A stretch of DNA of 34,399 nucleotides from an uncultured virus (IMG/VR IMGVR_UViG_3300032323_001173) (Duplodnaviria; Heunggongvirae; Uroviricota; Caudoviricetes). The notes beneath the pieces are model-generated. The model searched no databases. It saw nothing but the letters and a program-made list of their open reading frames with translations, and was not told the DNA's origin. A program made the position numbers and the translations under genes. The stretch lies in IMG/VR virus record IMGVR_UViG_3300032323_001173. The stretch is one strand, 5' to 3'. Shown one piece after another: positions 16,534 through 31,317 of this stretch. How positions within the stretch are numbered: the stretch's first letter is position 1; each line of letters begins with the position of its first letter.

Positions 16534-18893
16534 GCGTAAAAATACAAGTAAAACGGACAACCAAGCAGGCGTGGATTGACGTCAACCCCCTGCTAGACGC
16601 TGGTGAGTTCGGCTATGAGACCGACACGGGTAACTTCAAGATTGGTAACGGTACGTCGCTATGGAACGCTCTTGGTTATGCCGCCTACGATGCCTCCCTT
16701 TTGGAAGAGCGCTTTGCTGAAGAAGCCTGGCACAGGCCAGCACGTTTAGCAACAGCCGCTGTATTGCCTAACACCCCTGCGTACACCGCAGGATCTGCGG
16801 ACGCAGATGGTGGTACGGGTACAGGCGCATATCTTCAGGCATCAGAGAACGCTCGTTTGGTTGTAGACAGTGTTAACGCTGTCACGGGTAACCGTATTTT
16901 GGTAAAAGACCAAGTAAACACGATTCACGACGGTGTTTATGATGTGACTGCACAAGGCAGTGCTAGCGCTCCTTGGAGGTTAACACGTTCAGCAGACATG
17001 AACGGATCACGAGTTGGGCAAGCAACACAAGGTGAAGTTGTCGGAGTACTTGAAGGAACCACTAACTACAACCAACAATTTTCAATTTCTTCAGTAGGTA
17101 CTGGCGCAGATGGGGCGCACCTAATAGGTTCTGACTCTTTAACTTTCCAACAAATTACAGGAACGGCTTCTTTTAACGCTGGTGCTGGTCTTACGGTTTT
17201 CGGAAACACACTGAATGTGTCAAGTGCCGCATCTAGCCGCATCTTTGTAACGGAAAACGCCATTGACCTTGCCCCAATTACGCAAGGAGACAATAGCGCC
17301 GCCGCAACTAATACTTTTGTTTCTGCTATTACCCGTGACGGTTATGGTCGTGTTTTAGGTGTTACTACCAATGACGTAACTTTAACGTTGGGCACCCACA
17401 CCACTGGTAATTACGTTGCAGAACTAACCGCAGGAACAGGTGTAACTGTAACTAACAGCGGTGGAGAAAATTCTAATCCTACTGTGGCTATCGGACAAGC
17501 CGTAGGAACGACCTCAAACGTTACGTTTGCTACGGTCACAGCAAGTCTTACGGGTAATGCTTCCACAGCCACAACCCTGCAAACGCCAAGAAATATTGCT
17601 GGTCAGTCTTTTGATGGATCTGCAAACATTTCAATTGCACCTACTGACCTCACTGGCGTTACTTCATCAGCCTCAGAACTAAATATCCTTGACGGCGCTA
17701 CCCTTTCAACAACTGAACTTAACTACGTTGATGGTGTAACTTCTGCAATACAAACTCAATTAGATAACAAAGCAAGCGCTACAGCATCACCTGTAATCAC
17801 TCTTGGTGGAGATTTGTCTGGTTCTGCAACTCTTACAAACCTTGGTAACGCAACACTGACTGCAACAATTGCCGCTAATTCAGTGGCATTAGGTACCGAC
17901 ACTACTGGTGATTATGTAGCATCATTGGTTGCTGGTACTGGCGTGACCTTGACTAATAACTCAGGTGAGGGCGCAACCCCTACAATTGCGATTGGTCAAG
18001 CAGTAGGTACAGGTGCGTCAGTTGGGTTTGCACAAGTAACCACAACTGGAAACGTAACAGTTGGTGGTGACATCTATGTCAACGGCACATACTTCACTAC
18101 TACAGAAACAAGTCTTGCGATTGAAGATCCATTTATTTATTTAAATGACGGTTCAACGGTAACAAATCCAGACCTTGGAATTGCTGGAAACTACAATGAC
18201 GGAACGTACAGACATGCTGGAGTATTCCGTGATGCCACTGACGGTAAGTGGAAGTTCTTTGACAGTTATACACCAGAACCAAACAACCCAATTGACACGG
18301 GGCATGGAACGTATGCTCCAGCAACAGTAGTTGCCAAATCAATTGAAAGCACAGTTTCAACTGGAACAGCGCCATTGGTTGTTGCATCAACAACAGCCGT
18401 TACTAACCTAAACGCTGACCTTCTTGATGGTCAACACGGTTCGTTCTATGCGCCAATAAACAACGCATCATTTACTGGAACCTTTAGCGCTCCTTCGGGA
18501 ACAATTACCAGCACGATGATTGCTGATGGGACTATTGTAAATGACGATGTTTCTGCAACAGCGGCTATTGATCTTGGTAAGTTGGCTGACGTTTCAACAA
18601 ACGCTCAAACCGCTTCGTACACACTTGTGTTGGCTGACAAAAATAAGGTTGTGGAAATGGGTGTTGGCTCTGCCAATAACCTGACTGTGCCTCTTAACTC
18701 ATCACAGGCTTTTCCTGTGGGTTCACAAATCAACATCCTTCAAACTGGCTCAGGCCAAACCACAATCGTGGCTACGGGTGGAGTGACCATCAACGCCACA
18801 CCAGGTCTTAAGATGCGAGCGCAGTGGTCGTATGCTACGCTAATCAAACGAGCAACCGATACTTGGGTATTGGTAGGAGATATTTCGGCGTAA
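16530..18893 (+). CDS. long tail fibre protein with Mtd-N/hyaluronidase-like N-terminus
   Basis: IQVKR...NPLLDAGEFGYETDTGNFKIGNG; NADLLDG; internal duplication. Confidence 0.8.
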   Translation: MSVKIQVKRTTKQAWIDVNPLLDAGEFGYETDTGNFKIGNGTSLWNALGYAAYDASLLEERFAEEAWHRPARLATAAVLPNTPAYTAGSADADGGTGTGAYLQASENARLVVDSVNAVTGNRILVKDQVNTIHDGVYDVTAQGSASAPWRLTRSADMNGSRVGQATQGEVVGVLEGTTNYNQQFSISSVGTGADGAHLIGSDSLTFQQITGTASFNAGAGLTVFGNTLNVSSAASSRIFVTENAIDLAPITQGDNSAAATNTFVSAITRDGYGRVLGVTTNDVTLTLGTHTTGNYVAELTAGTGVTVTNSGGENSNPTVAIGQAVGTTSNVTFATVTASLTGNASTATTLQTPRNIAGQSFDGSANISIAPTDLTGVTSSASELNILDGATLSTTELNYVDGVTSAIQTQLDNKASATASPVITLGGDLSGSATLTNLGNATLTATIAANSVALGTDTTGDYVASLVAGTGVTLTNNSGEGATPTIAIGQAVGTGASVGFAQVTTTGNVTVGGDIYVNGTYFTTTETSLAIEDPFIYLNDGSTVTNPDLGIAGNYNDGTYRHAGVFRDATDGKWKFFDSYTPEPNNPIDTGHGTYAPATVVAKSIESTVSTGTAPLVVASTTAVTNLNADLLDGQHGSFYAPINNASFTGTFSAPSGTITSTMIADGTIVNDDVSATAAIDLGKLADVSTNAQTASYTLVLADKNKVVEMGVGSANNLTVPLNSSQAFPVGSQINILQTGSGQTTIVATGGVTINATPGLKMRAQWSYATLIKRATDTWVLVGDISA

Positions 18894-18896
18894 CTT

Positions 18897-19580
18897 ATGG
18901 CAACAAAGGACTCAGGCGGAAAGCAACCAGGTACCCCAACAATTGGTACTGCCACGTTTGATAACACAAACGGTAATGCTTCTGTAACTTTTACGCCTGG
19001 GTACGCTGGTAAGGGGACAGTAACTTATACAGTTACGTCTAGTCCTGGCAACATCACAGGTACGGGGTCTTCTTCTCCAGTTACTGTAACTGGGTTAACT
19101 GCTGGAACTGCTTACACTTTTACCGTACGGGCAAACTCTAACAACGGTATTTCTTCAGGAACTTCTGGGTCTTCAAACTCTATTACTCCTGGAATTAAGC
19201 CATCAGCACCAACTATTGGTACGGCTACAGCAGGTAACGCTCAAGCAACTGTTACATACACTGCTGGTTCTGTAGGTTCGGGTGGAGTTACTTATACCGC
19301 TACGTCTAGTCCTGGGGCTAGAACAGGAACAGGTACCTCACCAATTACGGTTACAAGTTTAACAAATGGAACTGCATACACATTTACGGTAACCGCTTCT
19401 AACGCTTATGGTTCAAGTACATCTGCCTCATCTAACTCGGTGACCCCAGTTGCACCTCCGTACTTTCCACCGTACTTTCCACCATTTTTTCCACCTTTCT
19501 TTCCACCATTTTTTCCACCTTTCTTTCCACCGTTTTTTCCACCGTATTTTCCACCGTTCTTCCCTCCTGCATTTAAGTAG
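18897..19580 (+). CDS. two fibronectin type III domains plus C-terminal (PPxF)10 tail
   Basis: Two P..PTIGTAT...LT.GTAYTFTV.A units; PPYF/PPFF repeats. Confidence 0.85.
   Translation: MATKDSGGKQPGTPTIGTATFDNTNGNASVTFTPGYAGKGTVTYTVTSSPGNITGTGSSSPVTVTGLTAGTAYTFTVRANSNNGISSGTSGSSNSITPGIKPSAPTIGTATAGNAQATVTYTAGSVGSGGVTYTATSSPGARTGTGTSPITVTSLTNGTAYTFTVTASNAYGSSTSASSNSVTPVAPPYFPPYFPPFFPPFFPPFFPPFFPPFFPPYFPPFFPPAFK
19455..19574 (+). repeat. coding repeat of ten PP(Y/F/A)F tetrapeptides
   Basis: 12-bp period with synonymous codon variation. Confidence 0.95.
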
Positions 19581-19594
19581 GTATAGTGTGGGGT

Positions 19595-20224
19595 ATGGAA
19601 ACCTCACCTTGGAAAGTACAACCTGGGTATTTTGGACAAAGTCCAGAAAATATACTTATCTATGAAAACTTCATAGATCTAGAGGACGTTAAAAAGATAT
19701 ATACCTTTTGTAAGTCAATAGTTGAATGGGAAAACCCTATTGCCGAAAACCAATACGATGAAAATGGTGTCTGTACATATGACGCAAAGTATTGGAATGA
19801 CCGTCAGTGCCCGTCACATTTGATAAAAAAGCAAAACGCCGAAGTACATAGTTTGATTGAATATTACATTGACAAGATGAAAAAGTGCGCTGAAGACCAT
19901 TTTAAATGCACTATGAGTTCTCGTAACCCAGTTATTATCAGATGGTTTCCAGGTCTTGAGCAACGCCCACATGCAGATAAGCAATTAAATGATGGCTCAC
20001 CAAACCCTTTTACAGACTACGACCTCAACTCATTGTTCTACTACAACGACGACTTTGAAGGTGGAGAACTGTACTACCCAGATCACAACATCACGATAAA
20101 ACCAAAACCAGGTTTAGCCGTAATACATCCAGGGGACATTAATTATTTACACGGAGTAAAGATGGTGACGGCAGGAGAACGCTTTACGACTCCTTCCTTC
20201 TATAGTATTACCGAACTTCTATGA
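19595..20224 (+). CDS. 2OG-Fe(II) oxygenase, prolyl 4-hydroxylase-like
   Basis: HAD...YNDDFEGGEL...HGV...GER. Confidence 0.9.
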   Translation: METSPWKVQPGYFGQSPENILIYENFIDLEDVKKIYTFCKSIVEWENPIAENQYDENGVCTYDAKYWNDRQCPSHLIKKQNAEVHSLIEYYIDKMKKCAEDHFKCTMSSRNPVIIRWFPGLEQRPHADKQLNDGSPNPFTDYDLNSLFYYNDDFEGGELYYPDHNITIKPKPGLAVIHPGDINYLHGVKMVTAGERFTTPSFYSITELL

Positions 20225-20925
20225 GTAAATTAACACTACTTAAATCAGCACAAAACCCACCAACAGTTGCACAATCTAGAGTTAAGCGTGACTGGATGGA
20301 CGCTACTTACAATAAGCACGCTTATCAGTGCTTACCAATGACCTACGCCAACGTGTACGGATGGGAACTACAACTACAGCAGGAAGTGGTAGTTGAATGG
20401 GACGGATCAAACACTCCGCCAAAGATACTGAGTGGAGGGACGATAGGCGATCAAGTAGTCGCTAGTGGAAACATCATAGGCATGGTGTCGTTTAGAACTG
20501 GTTATTCGTTTAGAACTGAAGAGCCATACTCCACATGGATTGGTGGGTCTCCTAACTTCTTTGTAAATGGTGCAGAGCCTTTGTCAGCAATCATCCCTAG
20601 TAGTTGGTGGCCTGATCCGTTTGAAATGAACTGGAAAATCAACAAGATTAATGAGCCAGTTGTGTTTGAGGCTGGTATGCCTTTTATGTTCTTTAACATC
20701 TTTGACCACACCGTGTTAGAGGACGTCACCATTGAAACTGACTCACTTTGGAGTGATCCTGAGTTGGTCGCTTCTCGCCAGAAGTATGGTGACATGAAGA
20801 TGAAAAACCAGATGGAAAACCCGTGGACATGGACAAAAGGTATCCGTACTGGTCTAGACGCCGATGGTAATCGTATTGGTCCCGCTTTTACTGGGTTGCC
20901 TAAATTAGATGAACCACATGCATGA
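20221..20925 (+). CDS. DUF6065-like protein
   Basis: RDWMD...AYQCLPM..AN.YGW; F.MNWKI; family recognised from memory. Confidence 0.65.
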   Translation: MSKLTLLKSAQNPPTVAQSRVKRDWMDATYNKHAYQCLPMTYANVYGWELQLQQEVVVEWDGSNTPPKILSGGTIGDQVVASGNIIGMVSFRTGYSFRTEEPYSTWIGGSPNFFVNGAEPLSAIIPSSWWPDPFEMNWKINKINEPVVFEAGMPFMFFNIFDHTVLEDVTIETDSLWSDPELVASRQKYGDMKMKNQMENPWTWTKGIRTGLDADGNRIGPAFTGLPKLDEPHA

Positions 20926-21487
20926 ATTCATAACGTTGATGGCAACACACGCTTATGTTTGCCGTATTGACGATATTGATTATGAAACTGTTACATCTGA
21001 AGTTTTACAACAAGAACTAGTATTCTCAAGTGGATACGGATTCCGTGTATACCCAGATTCTGATGAGTGTCAAAAATTGCAGAACGCTATTGAAGTATTA
21101 GCAAATGAAGTACTCCCCCTACCCCTAACACTCACCGATATATGGGCAGTTGCTACAAATAAAGGTGAGTCAGTGGGGTATCACTCACACCACTCAAATA
21201 CACATATGCAACCTCAAGAGTATTGGAGTGGAGTCATTTACACGTCTTCTGACGACAGTTCAGCAGAACTAATACTGCATTCTTTTGGATATAACCGAAT
21301 TGAATCAATGACCAGAATAAAACCAGAAATTGGTAAAATAGTGTTTTTTAATTCCTACGTTCCGCACTTTACGACTATGCACCAATCAGATATCCCTAGA
21401 GTTGCCGTTAGTTTTAATTTAAAGCCAATAACCCCAAATGTCACAGAAATACCCGACATGAGCGTATATAGAGGAAACCATGAGTAA
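20909..21487 (+). CDS. 2OG-Fe(II) oxygenase (TIGR02466-like)
   Basis: HSH...WSGVIY...P..GKIVFFNSYVPH...RVAVSFN. Confidence 0.8.
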   Translation: MNHMHEFITLMATHAYVCRIDDIDYETVTSEVLQQELVFSSGYGFRVYPDSDECQKLQNAIEVLANEVLPLPLTLTDIWAVATNKGESVGYHSHHSNTHMQPQEYWSGVIYTSSDDSSAELILHSFGYNRIESMTRIKPEIGKIVFFNSYVPHFTTMHQSDIPRVAVSFNLKPITPNVTEIPDMSVYRGNHE

Positions 21488-21671
21488 TTTTGCTAAAGAG
21501 CAGGCAAAGGTTTATTTAAAGAGGTCAATAGATACTCTTCAAGCAATCTTAGGTATTGATGCGTACGCTCTTACCGAAATACCAGTAGACCCTTCTTCAG
21601 CGCTGTATGACTCCTACTTTTGTTTATTACACGAAGTAACTGCTTATAAGAAACTAATAGAAGATGAGTGA
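21480..21671 (+). CDS. small hypothetical protein
   Basis: Overlapping operon ORF with GAGG SD. Confidence 0.65.
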   Translation: MSNFAKEQAKVYLKRSIDTLQAILGIDAYALTEIPVDPSSALYDSYFCLLHEVTAYKKLIEDE

Positions 21672-22137
21672 CGCACCAATTGGTATAGACCCTGTTGACT
21701 ACCCCGCATTAGATCAATCAGACGTTTATTGGGACAAAACAAATGAGCAATGGGTTATTGCAAATAAAGAGACTGCGTACTGTCATCTTTATGGTCCACC
21801 AGAAAACAACTTACCTTTGGGCACCTGCCTAGTATGGGATTCTAAAGAAGACGTTCAGGACGTTACTACATCACACCAATACAATAACTATTTAAATTAT
21901 TTGCACTACTTAAATGAACTGACTGCCTATTTATATGTCCTTGGTTACTCCAGAGAGCAGTTTCCTGGACTAACTATAGATGAAATAGTGGCAAAAGCAA
22001 GGGGTGTGTATAAGTACAAACATGGTTCCCCTTCTGATCTGGCTAGTCAGGTGTACATTAAAAGAAAGAATATTGCCCTATTAAGGGGAGTTCGTAGAGC
22101 CTATTACAACATTCAGGTAACTAAGAATGGACAATAA
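21664..22137 (+). CDS. hypothetical protein
   Basis: Overlapping operon ORF. Confidence 0.7.
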   Translation: MSDAPIGIDPVDYPALDQSDVYWDKTNEQWVIANKETAYCHLYGPPENNLPLGTCLVWDSKEDVQDVTTSHQYNNYLNYLHYLNELTAYLYVLGYSREQFPGLTIDEIVAKARGVYKYKHGSPSDLASQVYIKRKNIALLRGVRRAYYNIQVTKNGQ

Positions 22138-22855
22138 ATATAACAGAGCGCACCTTGCTGATGTCTTTTCTAATACCCAAAGTCATGTGGACTCATTTCC
22201 AGGTAAGTACTACAAATACACATCTTCTAGATTGGCTGAGTACACCTCGTCTATTGATTTTGATAGAAGAAACATAGCCACTGGAGGGGTAGACCTTTCT
22301 ATATTCCCTTGGGAGATGTTTGCGGACACAAACGAAAGAAGTCTAAGAACATACACAATTTCTCAAGTATTTCAAGATTTGATCTACCAACTATGTTCCC
22401 CTAGAAAGATACTGATTTGTGGGGCAGATTATTCAAGTACACGGATAGTGCAATGCTGTGAAACCCCCGATATGCACGTAACTTTAGTTAATAACACAGC
22501 ACTTGACTATTTTGAAAAGTGCGTAAAAACAATAAATAAACGGTTTTCAGACATTAAATATGAGACTATTTCAATGCAAGACATTGTCAATGGGTATTCT
22601 TCTAAGTTTGATCTAATTGAGATATGGGCAAACCAACTAGATACCTCATTTGCTGACGTCAAGCAGTTTACATCACTATTGTCCACATCTGGGGTTTTAT
22701 TAATAAACGGTACATCTGATTGGTCATTCCTGTATGAGAATGAAACGTCAGCCCATCCTATGTACGATCTACACGAACAACTTAAGTTTGATGATTCTGT
22801 ATATACTTTTCATGTACCCCTCCATTACGGATTCACAGTTGTAACAAAGAAATGA
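22127..22855 (+). CDS. divergent SAM-dependent methyltransferase-like protein
   Basis: PRKILICG, KFDLIEI and LLSTSGVLLI patterns; motif I is degenerate. Confidence 0.5.
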   Translation: MDNKYNRAHLADVFSNTQSHVDSFPGKYYKYTSSRLAEYTSSIDFDRRNIATGGVDLSIFPWEMFADTNERSLRTYTISQVFQDLIYQLCSPRKILICGADYSSTRIVQCCETPDMHVTLVNNTALDYFEKCVKTINKRFSDIKYETISMQDIVNGYSSKFDLIEIWANQLDTSFADVKQFTSLLSTSGVLLINGTSDWSFLYENETSAHPMYDLHEQLKFDDSVYTFHVPLHYGFTVVTKK

Positions 22856-23529
22856 AAGTATTAGACAACTTCATAACAGACCAAGCGTTGCTGGAAGCAA
22901 TACGTTCGGATACTTCATTTTTCCCTGAATCCATGGGGGATAAAGCACAGGTCAACTATGGTGTCCACGAATACCATGACCCAGAATCCAAGCATTACTC
23001 TCCGTACATGTTCTGGGATGGTTGGTGGCGCTCACCTGCAAATACCCTCAAAAAGCAAGTTATTCAGCATATTTGGGAACACAACTTACCTATCCCACAA
23101 GAAGACGTATGTGGTTTTGAGTATTGGACAAAAACCTTTAAACCTGGTCAGTATCTGTCTTTACACATTGATGAAGACTCTCACTTATATAAAGAGTTTC
23201 AAGTTTTTAGTGGGCCTCTCATAGGGTGTGTGTATTACCCAGATTTTGAAACGGTGTCTGGTGGATTTCTTGAACTTCACGAGTACAGCCTTGAAGATGG
23301 GACATTCTTTGCATTAGAGCGAGGAAACTTAGATTCATTATCGTCCCCGATAGATAGAAGGGAACGTATCGCCCATAAACCAAACAGGTTGGTTATCTTT
23401 GATGCTGGGCACACCCTGCATAACACAACTGCTGTAGACCACGGTATACGTCGTGTTTTAATTGTTAATGTATGGAGTATGAATAACAAACCGTTAGCCT
23501 TAGAAACTGGAGGTTTTTACTATGAGTAG
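22852..23529 (+). CDS. 2OG-Fe(II) oxygenase
   Basis: GFEYW...HIDED...GGFL...PNRLVIFD...LH...RR. Confidence 0.85.
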   Translation: MKVLDNFITDQALLEAIRSDTSFFPESMGDKAQVNYGVHEYHDPESKHYSPYMFWDGWWRSPANTLKKQVIQHIWEHNLPIPQEDVCGFEYWTKTFKPGQYLSLHIDEDSHLYKEFQVFSGPLIGCVYYPDFETVSGGFLELHEYSLEDGTFFALERGNLDSLSSPIDRRERIAHKPNRLVIFDAGHTLHNTTAVDHGIRRVLIVNVWSMNNKPLALETGGFYYE

Positions 23530-24169
23530 TTATTTACGACCACAAGCATTAGGTGACCCACGGGCAGGTGTATTTGCATATCACGGGATGCTTCACCCAG
23601 ATTTAAACCTTGTTGGAAGACTAGAGGAAACCATTGGGGAAAGCACTACTGCTCCATACATGTGGATGGAAGCACTCGTTGGTGATCAACAGAAGATGCC
23701 AGAATACCGAGATTGTGTTGACTGCAAAATAAGCCCTGCACACCTTGAGCACATTCCATCTCAATTTGAAGGTCTTCGTAGTGTTTATAACGACACTGTC
23801 GCTGGTCTTAAACAGTGCATGGCTCATTACCAATCTATGTATAACATCACAATGGACTACATGGAAGCAATTAACTACGTTAGGTACAAACCAGGTCAGC
23901 ATTTTGCTGTTCACTCTGACAGTGGTTTTTCCTATAACTGCACAGTTTCTTCAGTCATGTACTTAAATGATGACTATGAAGGAGGAGAATTGTGGTTTCC
24001 ATTTCTTGACTTAACGTATAAGCCAAGGGCTGGAGATATCGTTATTTTCCCATCAACGTACATTTACGCTCACGCATCAAAACCAATTACATCTGGAGTT
24101 AAGTATTCCGCTGTAACCATGTTTGATTGGAACGATAGGACACATAAGAATTATGGACCTACTTATTAA
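23522..24169 (+). CDS. 2OG-Fe(II) oxygenase, prolyl 4-hydroxylase-like
   Basis: HSD...YLNDDYEGGEL...FPS...H...GVKY. Confidence 0.9.
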   Translation: MSSYLRPQALGDPRAGVFAYHGMLHPDLNLVGRLEETIGESTTAPYMWMEALVGDQQKMPEYRDCVDCKISPAHLEHIPSQFEGLRSVYNDTVAGLKQCMAHYQSMYNITMDYMEAINYVRYKPGQHFAVHSDSGFSYNCTVSSVMYLNDDYEGGELWFPFLDLTYKPRAGDIVIFPSTYIYAHASKPITSGVKYSAVTMFDWNDRTHKNYGPTY

Positions 24170-24434
24170 AGCAAGCACTCCATTTGGGAGTGAGGATTAC
24201 AGATTATCTATAGAAGAAGGTAACCCTGCTCGTGTGTCATTTCGTGACAACACTGTAGAAATAACTAACTACAAGTTTTCTGATACAGGGTTTCACGCAA
24301 TCTTTGATATTGCCGTACCAATGACCACTTCTGTTTTGCTTACGTTTATGAAAGACATAAACAAAGACACTTATAGTGGTATTGCAAAAATTGGTGACTT
24401 TACAACTGTAACCCTGACAGCAACCGTACTATGA
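24153..24434 (+). CDS. small beta-rich hypothetical protein
   Basis: ATG start MDLLIKASTPFG; ATGA overlap with the next gene. Confidence 0.65.
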   Translation: MDLLIKASTPFGSEDYRLSIEEGNPARVSFRDNTVEITNYKFSDTGFHAIFDIAVPMTTSVLLTFMKDINKDTYSGIAKIGDFTTVTLTATVL

Positions 24435-25048
24435 GTGAATCCATATTTGACATCAATATCTCATCATTAGACGGTACTCCTGACTTGATGACACAGGTAA
24501 AAGGAAACATTTGCTTATTTGTAAATATTGCTTCTAAGGCTGGGTATTCCCCGACATGCAGTAAAGTGTGGTCATACGCAAGGACTGCAAAGTGGTTATG
24601 GGAACTACAGCAAGTACATGACGAGTTTTTTGACAAAGGTTTTAGAGTTGTCGCTTTTCCATGTGACCAACTTGGTGGGATGGAACCACTTGAAAATGAT
24701 CAAATACTTGAATTTATTAAAGAAAACTACCCATTTGTAACATTCCCAATTAGTGAAAAGATAGATGTAAACGGACCAAACGAACACCCCATTTACACGT
24801 TCATTAAAGGTCCAGAGCGTAGAAACTTTAATGACAACACGGCTGATCTGTCCGAATCCGCTAAAAAGGGTCAGAACTTGGCAATGCAGGCGATGATGAG
24901 AATCCCACATAACTACGAGAAGTTCTTGATTAGTAGGGAAGGCGTACGCATCGCACGGTTTAACTGGCAGGATTCACCACTTGCTACTAAGCCTTTAGTA
25001 TTTGGCGCTGGTTGGACGATTAGGGAAGCGATAGCCGATGTCCTATGA
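24431..25048 (+). CDS. glutathione peroxidase-family protein with atypical active site
   Basis: VNIASK.G, AFPCDQLGGMEP, KIDVNG...HPIY and NYEKFLI motifs. Confidence 0.85.
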   Translation: MSESIFDINISSLDGTPDLMTQVKGNICLFVNIASKAGYSPTCSKVWSYARTAKWLWELQQVHDEFFDKGFRVVAFPCDQLGGMEPLENDQILEFIKENYPFVTFPISEKIDVNGPNEHPIYTFIKGPERRNFNDNTADLSESAKKGQNLAMQAMMRIPHNYEKFLISREGVRIARFNWQDSPLATKPLVFGAGWTIREAIADVL

Positions 25049-25955
25049 ACCCGAGCACCTGGGTAGTGGGGTAATTGTATTTAGAAACGTCATAGATGTA
25101 GACCATGACTTTTTAATACCGTACCTTGCAGATCTACATAAAAAGGTAGTTAGTGAAGACTTCACCATTATTCATGATGCTGACGGTGCCCCATTATATG
25201 CCGTTAACAGATCTGGTCATAGGTACGACCTTGAACGGATTAATCAAGTAAACAGAATCATGGGGTTTGCCACGTCAGATAAAACAAGCCAAACGTATAA
25301 GTTCTTTGAAGGCTGTGAATCTGCTATCTATCAATGCCTACTTAGATACATAGAACAATATCCAATGTTATTACCGTCAATATGGTGGAAAGAGCAGGGG
25401 CATGTAGTTGCCTATAGCCCAAATAGTGCAATGGGATACCACTCAGATAATGATGTTAATTATCAACCAGGTGCTATACCTGACTTTCAAGTAGCCACAC
25501 GTCATGTTGTCGGTTGTGTTTTGTATTTTAACGATTCAGTAGATACCACTGACGACATTACTCCCTATACGTATGTTGGTGGGGAGTTAGATTTTAAGTA
25601 TCTAAATATCACATACAAGCCCAAATCTGGTGATGTCATTTTCTTTCCGTCTAATTATATGGCTACTCATGAAGTTAAAGATATTACAGATGGTGCACGA
25701 TATGCATATATCTCTTACTTTTCACAAGGTTCACCAGACGCACAACGAGGTATAAGTCCAGCAGAACGTATGGATCTTTTGATGTCCAGTCAAGTATGGA
25801 TACCTGAGTTGTTTGAAGACTATAGGACCTATCTGATCGGTAAGTATGGAGATGGTTTAACTAATCACCCACACTTAACACTCCCTCTTGATAGGATCAA
25901 CACTAGTAATGGCACACAAGAAGAAGTGTTAAGAGAGAAGAGTAAGCATGCGTAA
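25038..25955 (+). CDS. 2OG-Fe(II) oxygenase, prolyl 4-hydroxylase-like
   Basis: HSD...YFND...GGEL...FPSNYMATHEV...GARY. Confidence 0.9.
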   Translation: MSYEPEHLGSGVIVFRNVIDVDHDFLIPYLADLHKKVVSEDFTIIHDADGAPLYAVNRSGHRYDLERINQVNRIMGFATSDKTSQTYKFFEGCESAIYQCLLRYIEQYPMLLPSIWWKEQGHVVAYSPNSAMGYHSDNDVNYQPGAIPDFQVATRHVVGCVLYFNDSVDTTDDITPYTYVGGELDFKYLNITYKPKSGDVIFFPSNYMATHEVKDITDGARYAYISYFSQGSPDAQRGISPAERMDLLMSSQVWIPELFEDYRTYLIGKYGDGLTNHPHLTLPLDRINTSNGTQEEVLREKSKHA

Positions 25956-26808
25956 CAACGATGTCTCCTCACGCCATTTAGGTGGAGGTATTCTTTTATT
26001 TGAGAATGCTCTTTCTTTTGATTCAGACTGGATAGTTAAGTTTTCTGAAGAACAAGTAAGTAAAGAGCGGGACGAGATGTACACACCTACAGTACATCCA
26101 GAAACTGGAGAACCTGCGTTTCTTAATAAGAGCGGTTATCTATTTGATGCTGACGGTATAAACATGATGCCCCGTAGAGGTTCGGCTATCCACAGAACAG
26201 AGGATCCCGAGGTTCGTAAGTTCCTTGACTTTATAGAAACCGCTAAAGATCGGTACCTGTTGAAATACTTCATGGAGTTTCCAATTGCATACAAGAACAT
26301 ATGGTGGAAAGTAAAAGGACATCTTGTTTCTTACTCCACCACTAATGGCGGTAAGTTCTTAGGTAGTCACTCAGATACCAGCGCTGACTATCTTTACGGG
26401 TACCCACACCCAGCAGACCAATTGGCTACTAGAAACACCTTAACTAGTCTTGTTTATTTAAATGACAACTTTAGTGGTGGTCATCATTATTTTAATTATT
26501 TAGATATTGAGTATGTCCCAAATAAGGGTGACATTCTATTGTTTCCGTCTAACTTTATGACGGCTCATGAAGTCACCCCAATACTGGATGGTAGTAGATA
26601 CACGTACTTAGGTTGGTACGCCCATGGATCCCCTAATCCTGCTGTAAATGAACATATTGTTGATCCAGTTGAATCACCAGAACTCGCTAAAACAGCAACC
26701 AATGTGTATATGCCAACATTAAGGGACGACTTCTATAACTACATGGTAGAAGTAAATGCGGACAAAGACTTCCATGGGTGGTCTCTAGTAGAAAGTATTA
26801 ACTCGTGA
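25948..26808 (+). CDS. 2OG-Fe(II) oxygenase, prolyl 4-hydroxylase-like
   Basis: HSD...YLNDNFSGG...FPSNFMTAHEV...GSRY. Confidence 0.9.
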   Translation: MRNNDVSSRHLGGGILLFENALSFDSDWIVKFSEEQVSKERDEMYTPTVHPETGEPAFLNKSGYLFDADGINMMPRRGSAIHRTEDPEVRKFLDFIETAKDRYLLKYFMEFPIAYKNIWWKVKGHLVSYSTTNGGKFLGSHSDTSADYLYGYPHPADQLATRNTLTSLVYLNDNFSGGHHYFNYLDIEYVPNKGDILLFPSNFMTAHEVTPILDGSRYTYLGWYAHGSPNPAVNEHIVDPVESPELAKTATNVYMPTLRDDFYNYMVEVNADKDFHGWSLVESINS

Positions 26809-27542
26809 TAGCAACACACTTAGGAAACGCAATTGTCAAATATGACAATGCCATTTCAATTGACCCGCAGTTCATGTCAGGTTTTTATGACCGCCTTCAA
26901 CAAACAGGTGTAACCCATGGGGAAACTATTGACGAAGAGCATGTGCGTACGGAGGGTAAGTATATTTTTGATAAAACAAAGATAGTGGAATCACCACAAC
27001 GGTTTACTGACCTTTCTAAATTAACTTCTGAAGAAGATCAACTCTTTGTTAAGAACATGAGAAGTATTATCCATCGTTGTGTGCGTGAATATGTGCACAC
27101 TTTTCCTGTAGTTGCGGAATGTATTAGATGGTCAACTGATGGATACGTAATTAAATACGAAAATGGTCAATCCATTGGACCACACTCAGACTGTAGTATT
27201 GCTTACGCAGATGATGGGGTTACTCCAATAAATACGTTCCCAATGCAAAACATTATTACATGTGGACTAATGCTTAATGACGACTATGAAGGCGGTGCAA
27301 TCTCGTATAGACCTTGGGGCATTACCACCAGACCAGATGCTGGATCAGTTTTAATATACCCATCATCATACGTAGGGTGTCATGAAGTTGCCCCTATTAC
27401 CTCTGGTGTCCGCTATGCATACTTGATGTGGTATGGGCATGGTCCTATTGGTGGTTTTAATCACCGCACAGTAGATGATGTGCGTGGTTCAAACTCTAGT
27501 CAAGATATAGTTCTTGTTGGACAACTTCCGTTGTATGAGTAA
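26805..27542 (+). CDS. 2OG-Fe(II) oxygenase, prolyl 4-hydroxylase-like
   Basis: HSD...LNDDYEGG...HEV...GVRY. Confidence 0.9.
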   Translation: MIATHLGNAIVKYDNAISIDPQFMSGFYDRLQQTGVTHGETIDEEHVRTEGKYIFDKTKIVESPQRFTDLSKLTSEEDQLFVKNMRSIIHRCVREYVHTFPVVAECIRWSTDGYVIKYENGQSIGPHSDCSIAYADDGVTPINTFPMQNIITCGLMLNDDYEGGAISYRPWGITTRPDAGSVLIYPSSYVGCHEVAPITSGVRYAYLMWYGHGPIGGFNHRTVDDVRGSNSSQDIVLVGQLPLYE

Positions 27543-28574
27543 CTATAAGGTTCTTATTTTTCCACGATTTTGATTATCTTCAAAAACCTTATCGTGTTTG
27601 TATAACTGTCGGTGTCCTTCTTCCCCTTCTAGACTCCTGTTTTGAAATATAGGATTAGGTTTAAGTTGAAGATTTGTCTCACCGTATTCTGTTAATAGGC
27701 AATACTTTTGATAATCATCAAATAAGTTGTCTATCCAATGTGCCCTGCACCATGTATCACATTCGTCAGGTTCTACTACGCTAACCATCACTTCTTCGTG
27801 ACTAATACCTTGGGAAAAGAACTCCAAATAACAGTATCTATTACCTTTGAGTACTGTATTAACTCCATGTGTGGCAATGTAATTAGTAGGGAATATATAT
27901 ACATCGCCTTGTTTTGGTTTAGTAGTAATACCTAAATAAGGAAAAAACAGTTCTCCACCAACATAATTAGTACCGTCATACTCGTCTGTATCTACACAGT
28001 CATTGATGTAAATTAGTACCGCAACGACTTGACGCATTTGTAGTTGACCCTTGGGTATGTATCGTTTACCATTAGTTGAACGGTAGTTAGAGTCATTGTC
28101 ATTATGTATACCTAAGTAGTCACCAACGTCATACCTAATTACATGCCCACGGTTTCTCCACCAGATGGTCCCTAAAACCATGGGAAACATATCTATGTAT
28201 TTGATAAGGCATTTATAAATGGAGTCTTCCCAATATTTAAAAATGTCAACCATATGCGGTTCGGTGTCTGGTTTAACAGGTTCCAATACACGTACAGGAA
28301 CTTCTTCAATCTGTTCTATAGAAAACTTGTTACCATCTTCGTTTAGAGCGTATCTATTTCCATAGTCATCTACTTTGTAAGTCCAGCGTTGCTCATGAGC
28401 CTTTTGAGAGTTCCTATCAATCCATTCTGTTACTAATGGTCTATCTATAGAAACCGCTGATGGAAAACGGACAACACCGCCACCTAGGTCTTCTACTGCC
28501 ATTTTTTTAATGTCAAGAATGACATTCTCATCAATTAATGGGGTATCACCACTGAAATAATTACTTGTGCTCAT
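27543..28574 (-). CDS. 2OG-Fe(II) oxygenase, prolyl 4-hydroxylase-like
   Basis: HND...YIND...GGEL...FPTNYIATHGV...GNRY; start could instead be 28592. Confidence 0.9.
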   Translation of the reverse strand: MSTSNYFSGDTPLIDENVILDIKKMAVEDLGGGVVRFPSAVSIDRPLVTEWIDRNSQKAHEQRWTYKVDDYGNRYALNEDGNKFSIEQIEEVPVRVLEPVKPDTEPHMVDIFKYWEDSIYKCLIKYIDMFPMVLGTIWWRNRGHVIRYDVGDYLGIHNDNDSNYRSTNGKRYIPKGQLQMRQVVAVLIYINDCVDTDEYDGTNYVGGELFFPYLGITTKPKQGDVYIFPTNYIATHGVNTVLKGNRYCYLEFFSQGISHEEVMVSVVEPDECDTWCRAHWIDNLFDDYQKYCLLTEYGETNLQLKPNPIFQNRSLEGEEGHRQLYKHDKVFEDNQNRGKIRTL

Positions 28575-29241
28575 GTGCCAAGTTGTATGCATGCATATGC
28601 AACAACAACCTCTGTGGACTAGTTAAAGGGCTAAACAACACCGTACGTTCACCTTTAGTGATCATATTTACACCATGGGTGTACTCATGACCCCCAGGAA
28701 ACAGTACTAATTGTCCTTTTTTAGGTTTAATAGTTAAACCACGGGTAACAAACGTTAATTCTCCACCTTCAAAATCATCTGTTAAATATAAGTTTGCGGC
28801 TACTTCAATAAGAATAGGAGTATTAAATTCTGATGGTGAGTAACGTGGCATAAACTCAACCACCCCCGCATCCATAGCCTCAGAATCAGCATGGGGTTCG
28901 TGATCCATTCCTGGTTTAAAGCATTTTAAATATGGTTCTAATCTATGAACCAGCGTGCGTCCGTAAATGTCAGACGCCAATTCCACTATCTTTTTACCGT
29001 ACTTTTCCATTAATGGATGTGTTGACTTCTCAGGCCACACAGCCTTTCTCTTTCTTATCTCTTCTGCGTAAGCACCTACAAGGCGTACTTCACCTTTATT
29101 AAATTGGTACTCGGGAGCCACCCATGAACAATAAGATTCCCATTGGTACTCAGTATCATGAAACCTAAGTAACTCTAACCTGTCCTCTTCTGTTATGAAA
29201 TTCTCAAAAGAATAGATATGCTCATGCCCTAGGTAAGCCAT
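28561..29241 (-). CDS. 2OG-Fe(II) oxygenase, prolyl 4-hydroxylase-like
   Basis: HAD...YLTDDFEGGEL...HGV...GER. Confidence 0.9.
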   Translation of the reverse strand: MAYLGHEHIYSFENFITEEDRLELLRFHDTEYQWESYCSWVAPEYQFNKGEVRLVGAYAEEIRKRKAVWPEKSTHPLMEKYGKKIVELASDIYGRTLVHRLEPYLKCFKPGMDHEPHADSEAMDAGVVEFMPRYSPSEFNTPILIEVAANLYLTDDFEGGELTFVTRGLTIKPKKGQLVLFPGGHEYTHGVNMITKGERTVLFSPLTSPQRLLLHMHAYNLAHEHK

Positions 29242-29271
29242 GTCCGTAGTATACCTGTGTAGAATGAACCC

Positions 29272-29421
29272 ATGGAGATAAAAAACCGAGAAGAGCGCCT
29301 TAAGATCTGTGAAGAATGCCCTAGACTGTTTAAACCCACATTTACCTGTAAGGAATGTGGTTGTTTTATGAAGGTAAAAACGTTAATTAAAGCGCAAACT
29401 TGCCCTTTAGGAAAGTGGTGA
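29272..29421 (+). CDS. small Cys-rich protein (DUF6171-like, 49 aa)
   Basis: Manually translated: RLKICEECP...CKECGCFM...CPLGKW. Confidence 0.8.
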   Translation: MEIKNREERLKICEECPRLFKPTFTCKECGCFMKVKTLIKAQTCPLGKW

Positions 29422-30339: not shown

Positions 30340-30350
30340 TATAGAGCCGT

Positions 30351-30809
30351 ATGGCACCACGACCTAAATCAGGATTAAGCAAATCAGCAAGAGCACGTTT
30401 TGCTGAAGGTTTAAACTATTACACTGGTCAATACGCCATTGACGAAGAACGTTCACGTCAAAAAGCAAATGACGAGAGATTTAAGAGCACTGAACAAGAG
30501 TTCATTAAGTGGGACCCTAACACCACTTACTCACATGGTCCTAGTCAAAGTAGTCGTGTTAAGTCTTTTAGGTTTGTAGCCATGGATGGTATTCCTGGGG
30601 CTGTTGGATTTATAGGAACTTTGTTTGTAGAGTTCTGGCCTAAGAAAGAAGGAAGTGCAGGCGCTAGGTACAAATACATGAATGTCCCTGAAAACGTATT
30701 TCAAGCATTTGCAAATACTCAATCAAAAGGGCGTTATATTAATGCTGTACTAAACAACTTTAACTACAGCCCCGTCACAGGTGGTGAAGATATCTTCTTT
30801 AAAGGATAA
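30351..30809 (+). CDS. KTSC domain protein
   Basis: SSRV...LFVEF...YKYMNVP...F....SKGRYIN. Confidence 0.75.
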   Translation: MAPRPKSGLSKSARARFAEGLNYYTGQYAIDEERSRQKANDERFKSTEQEFIKWDPNTTYSHGPSQSSRVKSFRFVAMDGIPGAVGFIGTLFVEFWPKKEGSAGARYKYMNVPENVFQAFANTQSKGRYINAVLNNFNYSPVTGGEDIFFKG

Positions 30810-30818
30810 GAGCACAAA

Positions 30819-31315: not shown

Positions 31316-31317
31316 CG

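What the first reader, a model, noticed from the sequence alone, without database searches (positions are those of the whole stretch)
18897..29421. Candidate virion peptide-tailoring system: (PPxF)10-tailed Fn3 protein followed by nine 2OG-Fe(II) oxygenases
Seen: the last fibre-cluster gene ends in PPYF PPYF PPFF x5 PPYF PPFF PPAF, with synonymous codon variation implying protein-level selection. Directly downstream lie nine oxygenases with intact HxD/H...H...R/K motifs (seven prolyl-4-hydroxylase-like), a DUF6065-like gene, a methyltransferase-like gene, a GPx-fold gene and small unknowns. Known: P4H-type enzymes hydroxylate prolines in repetitive peptides, and RiPP clusters pair a repetitive core with tailoring enzymes. 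Inference: a RiPP-like pathway that hydroxylates or cross-links Pro/Phe/Tyr in a peptide displayed on the tail fibre for adhesion or host recognition. Phage 2OG oxygenases are known; this substrate link is the novel proposal.
Basis: partly seen in the sequence, partly recalled or inferred. Interest (0 to 1): 0.85.

Follow-up and report, generated by a model that had tools for sequence, protein, structure and literature searches.

The report
Phage Pro-Phe tail with hydroxylase cassette
An uncultured lake phage, probably of actinobacteria, ends its tail-fibre genes with a protein carrying a proline-phenylalanine repeat tail followed by nine collagen-hydroxylase-type enzymes; tail and enzymes always travel together, so the tail is the likeliest, still untested, substrate of abundant phage oxygenases whose role is unknown.

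Summary
ORF 18897-19580 is two Fn3 domains plus (PPxF)10-K. Behind it lie nine 2OG-Fe(II) oxygenase genes, a DUF6065 gene (dUTPase fold), an O-methyltransferase-fold gene and a GPx-fold gene that lacks its catalytic Cys.

- Of 90 non-redundant terminal-tail proteins with 3 kb or more downstream, 87 are followed by window-type oxygenases.
- Every DUF6065 locus with enough upstream DNA has a tail.
- Fn3 relatives without a tail have no array.
- On the window's own backbone (TerL 80-100% identical), six complete genomes lack tail, DUF6065 and array. Three separate sublineages have them together.
- The cassette also sits on an unrelated 140-174 kb backbone.
- The tail is fused to at least three unrelated carrier domains.
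- New here: a distant phage group places Pro/Tyr/Asn-rich repeat proteins directly before a P4H-type oxygenase and two DUF6065 genes.

Points against:
- No chemistry is shown.
- The Syn9 array has no such tail.
- Tail-less relatives keep 0-3 small oxygenases beside Gly-rich or collagen-like fibre proteins.
- Transfer as one block could explain part of the linkage.

'RiPP-like' is not supported. This scan noted the same system earlier on at least seven other genomes. I put the substrate link at about 0.55.

The parts
16530..18893 (+). 787-aa tail-fibre protein directly upstream of the carrier (context)
   Evidence: Mtd_N PF18454 E 5.4e-9. It matches several tail-fibre and minor-tail PHROGs. Homologues occur both with and without the cassette.
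18897..19580 (+). Carrier protein: two Fn3 domains plus C-terminal (PPxF)10-K
   Evidence: PF00041 E 1.3e-12. 435 relatives were confirmed in viral contigs.
19455..19577 (+). The (PPxF)10-K tail itself, residues 187-227: the candidate substrate
   Evidence: Sequence. TRF period 12, 84% matches. Across 125 non-redundant tails: 45% Pro, 40% Phe, 5.6% Tyr, median 14 units, last residue Lys in 77.
19586..20224 (+). ox1: 2OG-Fe(II) oxygenase, 5 nt behind the carrier
   Evidence: PF13640 at 26.5 bits, cut-off 27. Best solved relative by sequence is prolyl 3-hydroxylase 1, 8k0e, E 4.4e-4. An ox1 type is the first oxygenase after the tail in 51 of the 66 cassettes that have one downstream, of 69 with 9 kb seen.
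20221..20925 (+). DUF6065 protein, dUTPase-like fold, invariant Cys37
   Evidence: PF19541 E 5.1e-43. AF2 model pLDDT 90.7. Foldseek finds dUTPases, E 6e-5. Invariant residues R23, W25, H33 and C37 in 34 sequences. Found downstream of the tail in 66 of 69 cassettes.
20909..21487 (+). ox2: oxygenase of the PF13759 family
   Evidence: PF13759 E 3.4e-9; phrog_81 E 3.7e-20. Present in 25 of 69 cassettes.
21480..22137 (+). Two small unknown genes (63 aa and 157 aa) that travel with the next two genes
   Evidence: No family found. Seen in 17 and 28 of 69 cassettes, in the fixed order u63-u157-u242-ox3.
22127..22855 (+). O-methyltransferase-fold protein (242 aa)
   Evidence: No Pfam match. The Atlas feature search points to O-methyltransferase clusters, score 0.91. 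AF2 pLDDT 81.4. Foldseek finds TrmR, caffeoyl-CoA and catechol O-methyltransferases, E 3e-8, TM about 0.5. Present in 42 of 69 cassettes.
22852..23529 (+). ox3: divergent oxygenase
   Evidence: PF13640 E 0.0068, under the cut-off; phrog_274 E 1.9e-6. HID...H...R is readable.
23522..24169 (+). ox4: the most P4H-like oxygenase; the core partner of DUF6065 elsewhere
   Evidence: PF13640 E 1e-12. Bacillus anthracis P4H 5iax E 1.9e-8; PBCV-1 P4H 5c5t E 0.0096. An ox4 type stands directly before DUF6065 in most of the 69 listed cassettes (read from the orders) and occurs downstream in 66 of 69.
24431..25048 (+). GPx-fold protein without the catalytic Cys
   Evidence: PF00255 E 1.1e-23. The alignment to Hyr1 (3cmi) shows the peroxidatic Cys replaced by Ala and the Trp of WNFEKF replaced by His. 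Present in 43 of 69 cassettes.
25038..27542 (+). ox5, ox6, ox7: three paralogous oxygenases (25038-25955, 25948-26808, 26805-27542)
   Evidence: PF13640 E 6.4e-8, 1e-11 and 1.6e-8. They are 26-32% identical to each other.
27543..29241 (-). ox8 (27543-28592) and ox9 (28561-29241), on the opposite strand
   Evidence: PF13640 E 4.2e-8 and 1.2e-7. ox8 is 38% identical to ox5; ox9 is 33% identical to ox1.
29764..33195 (+). Right border: VanY-type peptidase, KTSC protein, small genes, large terminase (context)
   Evidence: PF02557 E 1.2e-12 and PF13619 E 3.3e-9. Terminase PHROGs. In tail-less relatives with 92-97% identical TerL the fibre genes run straight into this block.

Best explanation
This is a protein-tailoring cassette in the tail-fibre locus of a roughly 97-kb lake phage, probably of actinobacteria.

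The carrier (two Fn3 domains plus a 41-residue Pro/Phe/Tyr tail) is made late, together with the fibre proteins. P4H- and P3H-type 2OG-Fe(II) oxygenases then hydroxylate residues of the PPxF units, prolines first. The core team is an ox1 type, an ox4 type and the dUTPase-fold DUF6065 protein.

The other, deeply diverged oxygenases (ox2, ox3, ox5-ox9) add further positions or regiochemistries. The O-methyltransferase-fold protein would cap some of the new hydroxyls. DUF6065 and the GPx-fold protein without its Cys act as non-redox helpers of unknown kind.

The product would be a stiff, more polar polyproline-II-like rod on a fibre-associated protein, used in contact with the host envelope.

Shown here: the gene families, the folds, the strict linkage of tail and cassette, and the mobility of the unit. 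Inferred: that the tail is the substrate, which residues are modified, that the protein is in the virion, and the adhesive role.
For: (1) Forward linkage. Of 125 non-redundant terminal-tail proteins, 90 have 3 kb or more downstream. Of these, 87 are followed by window-type oxygenases and 84 by three or more. With 9 kb or more (n=69) the median is 8, and DUF6065 lies downstream in 66.

(2) Reverse linkage. Of 74 new loci found through DUF6065, 59 have a tailed protein upstream on the same strand. The 15 without one all have 3,230 bases or fewer of upstream DNA.

(3) Fn3 relatives. With a tail and 3 kb or more downstream, 37 of 38 have three or more oxygenases. Without a tail it is 0 of 24. PF13640 is found in 0 of 22 tail-less contigs.

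(4) Same backbone. Six 99-100% complete genomes with TerL 82-96% identical to the window's have no PPxF pattern, no DUF6065 over the cut-off and 0-1 PF13640 match. On the TerL tree the cassette needs at least 3 changes. A tail was seen in each cassette sublineage: the window; L108, on the same contig as L342; and L015/L016/L017 and G044, which carry a degenerate (P/G)PxF tail with one PF13640 oxygenase and DUF6065.

(5) Other backbone. Four complete 141-174 kb genomes with the cassette (6-11 PF13640 matches) have no window-type TerL.

(6) The tail is fused to unrelated carriers: Fn3 (84), an unnamed 59-aa domain (26) and PASTA (2).

(7) Family precedent. The nearest solved relatives are Bacillus anthracis P4H, prolyl 3-hydroxylase 1, PBCV-1 P4H and lysyl hydroxylase LH3.

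(8) A second repeat 'dialect'. In a prophage of a Pseudomonadota genome (L425) and in viral contigs L426 and L427, a Pro/Tyr/Asn-rich repeat protein abuts a PF13640 oxygenase (E 1.8e-16). Two DUF6065-like genes follow (Pfam E 4.9e-7; hhalign probability 96% to the window's family). L428 and L429 have such a protein two ORFs upstream.
Against: No chemistry of any kind is shown, and no known P4H is reported to act on PPxF.

The Syn9 array follows fibre genes but has no PPxF-like repeat in 30 kb.

Tail-less relatives on the window's own backbone keep 0-3 small oxygenases (PF13640, PF13759, PhyH, TauD) at the same place. They sit beside Gly_rich_2 and collagen-repeat proteins, methyltransferases, a sulfotransferase and glycosyltransferases. 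So fibre-locus oxygenases do not need a PPxF tail and could act on other fibre proteins.

Five contigs with internal PFF/PPFF linkers in large proteins have no oxygenase within 10 kb. Four of these five have PF13640 elsewhere on the contig. One of them (36.8 kb, 31% complete) has none.

Adjacent genes are inherited and transferred as one block, so linkage alone does not prove an enzyme-substrate pair. The loci counted are related to each other, so the counts are not independent events.

Nine enzymes for one four-residue repeat is more than a simple substrate seems to need.

Cellular DUF6065 genes (22 of 401 Pseudomonadota genomes searched) do not sit beside window-type oxygenases in 17 loci examined.

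L430 has a DUF6065-like gene without an oxygenase.
Confidence: 0.55

Rival explanations
1. Linked but not enzyme and substrate. The tail protein and the oxygenase cassette are neighbours in a hypervariable fibre and modification island and move as one block. The oxygenases act on other proteins, such as other fibre or tail proteins or host envelope proteins. The Pro/Phe tail stays unmodified as a hydrophobic, stiff spacer or anchor.
For: Relatives on the same backbone carry other cargo at this spot: Gly_rich_2 and collagen-repeat fibre proteins with 0-3 oxygenases, methyltransferases, a sulfotransferase, glycosyltransferases and an epimerase. The Syn9 array follows fibre genes without any PPxF repeat. 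Internal PFF linkers occur in large proteins 30 kb away from the oxygenases. The cassette has a lower G+C (0.38-0.44) than the fibre genes (0.43-0.50), as an imported block would.
Against: Fibre-protein homologues occur in many loci without any array, whereas long terminal tails do not. The constant partner of the cassette is the tail, not the carrier domain, which is swapped between Fn3, PASTA and a third domain. A distant DUF6065 and oxygenase module again sits directly behind a Pro/aromatic-rich repeat protein of unrelated sequence. The order is kept down to 27-30% DUF6065 identity.
Confidence: 0.22
2. Small-molecule or metabolic role. The array makes or alters a secondary metabolite, as proposed for the Syn9 array. 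Or it shifts 2-oxoglutarate and succinate levels, or it repairs nucleic acids, as proposed for cyanophage oxygenases. The tail protein would be unrelated to it.
For: Iyer et al. 2010 (PMC2938197, passages read) proposed metabolite synthesis for the Syn9 tandem array, which also holds a dUTPase-fold protein with a conserved Cys. Sullivan et al. 2010 (PMC3037559, passages read) proposed 2OG modulation and DNA repair. An O-methyltransferase fold of the catechol/caffeoyl-CoA type would also fit small-molecule chemistry.
Against: The cassette has no halogenase, peptide synthetase, transporter or other biosynthetic gene. The closest solved relatives are protein hydroxylases, not AlkB or Tet. A metabolic role does not explain the strict pairing with a Pro-rich tail on two backbones, nor its joint absence from six complete sister genomes.
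Confidence: 0.1
3. True RiPP. The tail is cut off the Fn3 carrier and released as a free, modified Pro/Phe peptide with its own activity.
For: The junction ...TPVA|PPYF is conserved: 51 of 125 tails are preceded by TPVA. The end is conserved too, Lys in 77 of 125. Tailoring enzymes lie next to a repetitive core.
Against: No protease, recognition element or exporter is found among the cassette genes. Other carriers lack the TPVA junction. Some tails are internal or are followed by further domains.
Confidence: 0.04

Closest known systems
Tandem dioxygenase array of Synechococcus phage Syn9, gp41-gp54 (Iyer, Abhiman, de Souza and Aravind 2010, PMC2938197; passages read)
   Same: Many tandem 2OG-Fe(II) oxygenases of several families lie directly after the tail-fibre genes. 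The paper reports a dUTPase-fold protein with a conserved Cys inside the array. The window's DUF6065 has that fold and an invariant Cys.
   Different: Syn9 has two tryptophan halogenases and a JmjC member, and no PPxF repeat in 30 kb. The window has none of the first two. Syn9 gp43 is not recognisably DUF6065 (no Pfam match; hhalign probability 1.4%). The authors proposed metabolite synthesis and named no protein substrate.
Chlorovirus PBCV-1 prolyl 4-hydroxylase and that virus's Pro-rich repeats (Eriksson et al. 1999, J Biol Chem 274:22131). I saw only the reference, in the reference list of PMC9301287; the content is recalled. The structure is 5c5t.
   Same: A virus encodes a P4H-type enzyme together with its own Pro-rich repeat proteins. 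ox4 matches 5c5t by sequence (E 0.0096).
   Different: PBCV-1 has one enzyme, a eukaryotic virus and, as recalled, Pro-Ala-Pro-Lys type repeats. Here there are nine enzymes plus helpers, a Pro/aromatic repeat, a bacterial virus and strict gene adjacency.
Bacterial collagen-type prolyl 4-hydroxylase (Bacillus anthracis P4H; 5iax, 3itq, 5hv0)
   Same: It is the best solved relative of ox4 (E 1.9e-8) and also matches ox1 and ox6. It has the same PF13640 core.
   Different: As recalled, its substrate is collagen-like X-Pro-Gly. The window has no Gly-X-Y repeat. Collagen-repeat proteins do occur in tail-less relatives.
Hydroxyproline-rich adhesive or structural polymers: plant extensins and mussel foot protein 1 (recalled from general knowledge; an analogy only)
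   Same: These are genetically encoded Pro/aromatic repeats that become functional after multiple hydroxylations.
   Different: There is no homology and no evidence of such chemistry here.

Membership tests
P4H-type 2OG-Fe(II) oxygenases (Pfam PF13640, 2OG-FeII_Oxy_3) | Sequence match to the double-stranded beta-helix core above the curated cut-off | tested here: met
   Six of the nine ORFs are over 27 bits (ox4-ox9). ox1 has 26.5 bits. ox3 is weak (17.8 bits). ox2 belongs to PF13759 instead.
P4H-type 2OG-Fe(II) oxygenases (Pfam PF13640, 2OG-FeII_Oxy_3) | HxD...H iron triad and a basic residue that binds 2OG | tested here: met
   Read by eye in the translations for ox1 and ox3-ox9. H131, D133, H184 and K194 of ox4 are invariant in 35 sequences. 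ox2 is unclear.
P4H-type 2OG-Fe(II) oxygenases (Pfam PF13640, 2OG-FeII_Oxy_3) | Hydroxylation of peptidyl proline | not testable with these tools
   This needs an enzyme assay or mass spectrometry.
Syn9-type tandem dioxygenase array (Iyer et al. 2010) | Several tandem dioxygenases of distinct families | tested here: met
   There are nine. ox5-ox8 are paralogues (26-38% identical), ox1 and ox9 are 33% identical, ox4 lies between, and ox2 and ox3 have no BLAST link to the others.
Syn9-type tandem dioxygenase array (Iyer et al. 2010) | dUTPase-fold protein with a conserved Cys inside the array | tested here: met
   The DUF6065 model matches dUTPases and C37 is invariant. Homology to Syn9 gp43 itself is inconclusive.
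Syn9-type tandem dioxygenase array (Iyer et al. 2010) | Tryptophan halogenases and a JmjC/MINA-type member | tested here: not met
   Neither is among the window's ORFs. Both are present in Syn9.
RiPP biosynthetic cluster | Precursor with leader and core, and proteolytic release of the core | tested here: not met
   No protease, recognition element or exporter family in 18897-29745. The repeat is the C-terminus of a folded Fn3 protein.
RiPP biosynthetic cluster | Tailoring enzymes encoded next to a repetitive peptide | tested here: met
   ox1 starts 5 nt after the stop of the tail gene.
Glutathione peroxidase (PF00255) | Peroxidatic Cys or Sec in the NVASxCG motif, within the catalytic tetrad | tested here: not met
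   The fold matches (E 1.1e-23). But Cys is replaced by Ala and Trp by His in the alignment to 3cmi. The position varies among homologues: only 2 of the 27 that matched my motif pattern have Cys.
Cation-dependent class I O-methyltransferases (CCoAOMT/catechol type, PF01596) | Fold and sequence-family match | tested here: inconclusive
   The fold matches (Foldseek E 3e-8, TM about 0.5) and the Atlas gives a lead at 0.91. There is no Pfam match at E 0.01 and no PDB profile match. SAM and metal motifs were not checked.

The most novel reading that the evidence does not exclude
Phages of freshwater actinobacteria, and at least one distant phage group with a Pro/Tyr/Asn repeat, encode their own extensin-like or mussel-glue-like material. 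A genetically encoded Pro/aromatic polymer on a fibre-locus protein is turned, by a dedicated battery of up to a dozen protein hydroxylases, an O-methyltransferase and dUTPase-fold helpers, into a heavily hydroxylated rod displayed on the virion for binding the host envelope. That would give the abundant and so far cryptic 'P4H' genes of aquatic viromes a substrate and a function.
Probability: 0.3. Interest if true: 0.85.

Novelty: new variant of a known kind. Interest (0 to 1): 0.72.

Why it matters
2OG-Fe(II) oxygenase and P4H-like genes are among the commonest 'auxiliary' genes in aquatic phages. One survey that I read in passages says that how viruses use prolyl 4-hydroxylase 'remains cryptic' (PMC9301287). 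Earlier proposals were DNA repair, 2OG balance or metabolite synthesis (PMC3037559, PMC2938197).

A named, short, synthesisable candidate substrate that travels with the enzymes makes the question directly testable with peptides and mass spectrometry. If it holds, this would be a new class of post-translationally tailored phage surface protein. It would also offer a set of hydroxylases with possibly distinct regiochemistries on a simple repeat.

I found nothing in print that links PPxF tails or DUF6065 to phage oxygenases. The searches were 'PPFF' with 'phage' (0 papers), 'DUF6065' (0 papers), 'actinophage, freshwater, oxygenase, whiB' (0 papers), and 'hydroxyproline, bacteriophage, tail fiber, hydroxylase' (2 papers in the listing; I read passages of one, PMC9301287, which does not deal with this; the other I know only from its title and abstract start).

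Tried and rejected
- Complex prediction of ox4 (35-row alignment) with carrier residues 176-227 gave no verdict: score 0.00, controls not run.
- The look-up of sequencing runs listed no RNA holder.
- Read laying on four lake or freshwater runs gave contigs only. They show fragments of related cassettes and possible variants that skip ox2 or ox8 and ox9, at low stringency. I draw no conclusion from them.
- A near-identity DNA search of the cassette in cultured phages found no match.
- tblastn of the carrier and of DUF6065 against cultured phages found no match.
- The whole genome of the window is not held.
- hhalign of the DUF6065 profile against Syn9 gp43 gave probability 1.4%, which is inconclusive.
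- A profile of the 242-aa protein against PDB sequences gave nothing meaningful.
- The context of cellular DUF6065 genes in Pseudomonadota is housekeeping neighbours and gave no hint to function.
- MAG labels of six misbinned cassette contigs span several phyla, so I rejected them as host evidence.
- I considered correlating tail composition (Tyr, His) with enzyme content. I dropped this because the cassette types are few and related.

Full report
**What is in the window**

The window is a phage fragment. It holds a block of fibre genes (13492-18893), the region in question, a VanY-type peptidase, a KTSC protein and a large terminase. It has no tRNA and no close DNA relative among cultured phages.

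The terminase is 46% identical to those of Streptomyces phages of the BRock group. In IMG/VR it has 361 confirmed relatives. The 80 kept are 80-100% identical, and the long contigs among them are 92-99 kb.

Complete genomes of this lineage carry two WhiB genes each (5 of 5). Among 14 control genomes that family rings only in Corynebacterium. So an actinobacterial host is likely, as an inference. Parts of the cassette are held by runs labelled lake or freshwater metagenome (small shares).

**The observation**

ORF 18897-19580 starts 4 nt after the 787-aa fibre protein. It has two Fn3 domains and ends in (PPxF)10-K. The repeat units differ at synonymous positions only.

Behind it lie, in this order:
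- ox1
- DUF6065
- ox2
- two small unknown genes
- a 242-aa protein
- ox3
- ox4
- a small ORF
- a GPx-fold protein
- ox5, ox6, ox7
- ox8 and ox9, on the other strand

Most of these genes overlap or abut. Six oxygenases pass the PF13640 cut-off and ox1 misses it by half a bit. ox2 is PF13759 and ox3 is weak.

The nine are old and diverse. ox5-ox8 are 26-38% identical to each other, ox1 and ox9 are 33% identical, and ox2 and ox3 have no BLAST link to the rest. The nearest solved relatives by sequence are Bacillus anthracis P4H (ox4, E 1.9e-8), prolyl 3-hydroxylase 1 (ox1, ox9), PBCV-1 P4H and lysyl hydroxylase LH3.

**The helper genes**
- DUF6065 folds with high confidence (pLDDT 90.7) into a dUTPase-like barrel (Foldseek E 6e-5). 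It has invariant R23, W25, H33 and C37.
- The 242-aa protein models (pLDDT 81.4) as a class I O-methyltransferase. It is closest to TrmR and to caffeoyl-CoA and catechol O-methyltransferases.
- The GPx-fold protein has Ala in place of the peroxidatic Cys and His in place of the catalytic Trp. It is not an ordinary peroxidase.

**Do tail and enzymes go together? Forward test**

I searched viral contigs with the carrier protein (435 confirmed relatives, best 80 kept). ORFs were scored with phmmer against the window's own proteins.

After collapsing near-identical proteins there are 125 terminal-tail carriers:
- Of the 90 with 3 kb or more downstream, 87 are followed by at least one window-type oxygenase and 84 by three or more.
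- The three exceptions are two short hits in bacterial MAGs (L280, L290) and one locus with eight oxygenases on the other side (L098).
- With 9 kb or more downstream (n=69) the median is eight oxygenases, range 0-12.
- The gene order is conserved: carrier, ox1 type(s), ox4 type, DUF6065, then optionally u63-u157-u242-ox3-ox2, GPx, ox5-ox6-ox7, and ox8 and ox9 on the opposite strand.
- An ox4 type and DUF6065 are each present downstream in 66 of the 69.

**Reverse test and controls**

Starting from DUF6065, 59 of 74 new loci have a tailed protein upstream. The 15 without one are all cut within 3,230 bases of the DUF6065 gene.

Among the 80 Fn3 relatives, 47 have a tail and 33 do not. The tail-less ones carry another C-terminal domain instead.
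- With 3 kb or more downstream, 37 of 38 tailed loci have three or more oxygenases, against 0 of 24 tail-less ones. These loci are related and partly redundant, so the Fisher value is not a probability of independent events.
- At Pfam level, PF13640 is found in 0 of 22 tail-less contigs, three of them complete.
- In bacterial and archaeal genome contigs the pattern hit 28 loci. The seven with long terminal tails (six contigs, binned into MAGs of several phyla) all carry window-type oxygenases. Six of the seven also carry DUF6065; the seventh lies at a contig end. The other 21 have no window-type oxygenase.

**Is this more than one conserved neighbourhood in one lineage?**

Three results bear on that.

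First, the backbone. Only 1 of 25 long cassette contigs has the window's type of terminase. Four complete 141-174 kb genomes with direct terminal repeats or 100% estimated completeness have the cassette (6-11 PF13640 matches) but no such terminase. They too have WhiB (4 of 4).

Second, within the window's own terminase lineage, six 99-100% complete genomes of 95-99 kb have no PPxF pattern anywhere, no DUF6065 over the cut-off and 0-1 PF13640 match. In those with 92-97% identical terminase the fibre genes run almost straight into the VanY-KTSC-terminase block. On a terminase tree the cassette needs at least three changes, forced by well-supported branches. Each cassette-bearing sublineage has a tail:
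- the window;
- L108, which lies on the same contig as L342;
- the L015/L016/L017 and G044 group. Its tail is degenerate (APPSFGPSFPPPFGPSFGPSF.PAFK) and is followed by just one PF13640 oxygenase and DUF6065.

Third, the carrier. The tail is fused to Fn3 modules (84 non-redundant carriers), to an unnamed 59-residue domain (26) and to a PASTA domain (2). The constant partner of the enzymes is the tail, not the protein that carries it.

**A second repeat dialect (found here)**

A sample of 401 Pseudomonadota genomes was searched for DUF6065. One weak hit (G103, locus L425) lies in a prophage tail region that holds an SU10-adaptor family protein and fibre-like proteins.

There the order is: fibre protein, then a 210-aa protein with a Pro/Tyr/Ser/Thr/Asn-rich stretch, then a PF13640 oxygenase (E 1.8e-16). 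A DUF6065 relative follows (Pfam E 4.9e-7, over the cut-off; hhalign probability 96% to the window's family), and then a second copy-like gene.

Five relatives were found in viral contigs:
- L426 and L427 have 329-aa and 313-aa proteins full of TNPTTYPYA or PGNAYYNP-like repeats (11-12% each of Pro, Tyr and Asn). These end 4 nt before, or overlap, the oxygenase gene, which is followed by two DUF6065-like genes.
- L428 and L429 have a similar protein two ORFs upstream.
- L430 has a DUF6065-like gene but no oxygenase.

The repeats are unrelated in sequence to PPxF but are again Pro plus aromatic. The sample is small, but it is the kind of recurrence expected of enzyme and substrate rather than of one inherited block.

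**Results against the reading**

- The Syn9 array of cyanophage oxygenases also follows fibre genes. It has no PPxF-like repeat in the 30 kb examined, and its gp43 is not recognisably DUF6065.
- Tail-less relatives on the window's backbone are not free of oxygenases. At the same spot they carry Gly_rich_2 and collagen-repeat proteins with 0-3 small oxygenases (PF13640, PF13759, PhyH, TauD), methyltransferases, a sulfotransferase, glycosyltransferases and an epimerase. My phmmer screen missed some of these. So the clean contrast holds for the window-type cassette and for arrays, not for every oxygenase.
- This makes the region a general fibre-and-modification island. It leaves room for targets other than the tail.
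- Large proteins with internal PFF/PPFF linkers have no oxygenase within 10 kb. Four of five such contigs have PF13640 elsewhere, in one case an array of six about 30 kb away. One 31%-complete contig has none.
- Cellular DUF6065 genes (22 of 401 genomes, one of them an unpublished genome) are not next to window-type oxygenases in 17 loci examined.
- No chemistry has been tested, and nine enzymes are many for a four-residue unit.

**Literature**

- Iyer et al. 2010 described the Syn9 array in silico, including a dUTPase-fold protein with a conserved Cys. They proposed metabolite synthesis (passages read).
- Sullivan et al. 2010 proposed 2OG balance and DNA repair (passages read).
- A Baltic Sea virome survey ranks P4HA among the most abundant viral auxiliary genes and calls its use cryptic (passages read).
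- The PBCV-1 precedent (Eriksson et al. 1999) I know from recall and from that paper's reference list.
- Searches for PPFF with phage, for DUF6065, and for actinophage with freshwater, oxygenase and whiB found no paper.

**Earlier notes of this scan**

The scan has noted the same kind of locus on at least seven other genomes, with the same reading. From those notes I took leads: the Iyer paper, the dUTPase fold, the actinobacterial host and the 'unrelated backbones' claim. I tested these myself here.

As far as those notes show, the following are new:
- the comparison with complete tail-less genomes of the same backbone;
- the tree count of cassette changes;
- the oxygenases found in tail-less relatives;
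- the carrier-domain count;
- the GPx active-site loss;
- the second repeat dialect.

**Verdict**

The best reading, at about 0.55, is a mobile protein-tailoring cassette whose P4H- and P3H-type oxygenases hydroxylate the Pro/aromatic tail of a fibre-locus protein. Virion display and an adhesive role are inferred from position only. 'RiPP-like' should be dropped. This is a new variant of known kinds, namely viral P4H with Pro-rich repeats and phage dioxygenase arrays. It can be tested directly with synthetic peptides.

Noticed in passing
window 24431-25048: The GPx-fold protein has lost two of its four catalytic residues: the peroxidatic Cys is Ala and the Trp is His. It has a 13-residue insert with a new Cys. 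Among cassette homologues the Cys position is L, F, T, Y, A, S or D, and Cys in only 2 of the 27 that matched my motif pattern. It is likely a repurposed thioredoxin-fold helper.
   Followed up: partly
loci L309-L387, upstream of the terminase; corresponds to window about 13000-31600: In the window's terminase lineage, the stretch between the fibre genes and VanY-KTSC-terminase is a hypervariable island. Different relatives carry Gly_rich_2 proteins, collagen-repeat proteins, tail-collar proteins, 0-3 small oxygenases, methyltransferases, a sulfotransferase, glycosyltransferases or an epimerase.
   Followed up: partly
L311:4300-4707 and 6959-7492; L321:2806-3168 and 5892-6188; L326:5311-5679: Each Gly-rich fibre gene in tail-less relatives is followed by a small ORF with a shared Trp/Pro motif (...PQPYPSWTLDENxDWxPP...W.WDE...). 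These may be fibre chaperones. The small oxygenases come right after them.
   Followed up: no
window 19001-29000 compared with its flanks: The cassette has a lower G+C (0.38-0.44) than the fibre genes before it (0.43-0.50) and the genes after it (0.44-0.50). The first 2 kb of the window reach 0.56-0.58. This is consistent with an imported block.
   Followed up: no
window 18897-18950 and carriers in L233, L089, L085, L121, L242: Fn3-type carriers share an N-terminal motif, M(A)xKDSGGK(Q/K)P..P, in front of the first Fn3 domain. It may be an attachment or recognition site.
   Followed up: no
L416, L417, L419 (Pseudomonadota genomes): Cellular DUF6065 genes score over 300 bits to the Pfam model. 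In 3 of 5 loci examined they lie divergently next to a YbaK/ProX-type aminoacyl-tRNA editing domain gene. In a fourth they lie between two aminoacyl-tRNA synthetase genes, and in a fifth next to a collagen-repeat protein.
   Followed up: partly
L279:8856-9806 and 10344-11144 (Syn9 gp36, gp38): Syn9 has Gly-rich proteins (long poly-Gly runs ending in ...GRLVVRYRLE or ...IVIVTHFK) between its fibre genes and its oxygenase array. They resemble in composition the Gly-rich fibre proteins of the window's tail-less relatives. gp36 had no Pfam match at E 0.01.
   Followed up: no
window 10283-12157: This 624-aa protein has an Fn3 domain and Thr-rich tandem repeats (TRF arrays at 10734-10800 and 11186-11245).
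   Followed up: no
window 20916-21480 and 27446-29272: Contigs from lake metagenomes join across these stretches, at 85% likeness and with short sides. They may be variants that lack ox2, or ox8 and ox9. This agrees with the variable content of the cassette elsewhere.
   Followed up: no
L148:13808-14827 (- strand): One tail carrier has a PASTA domain (PF03793, E 1.3e-9). As recalled, this is a peptidoglycan-binding module typical of Gram-positive bacteria. It hints at cell-wall contact.
   Followed up: no
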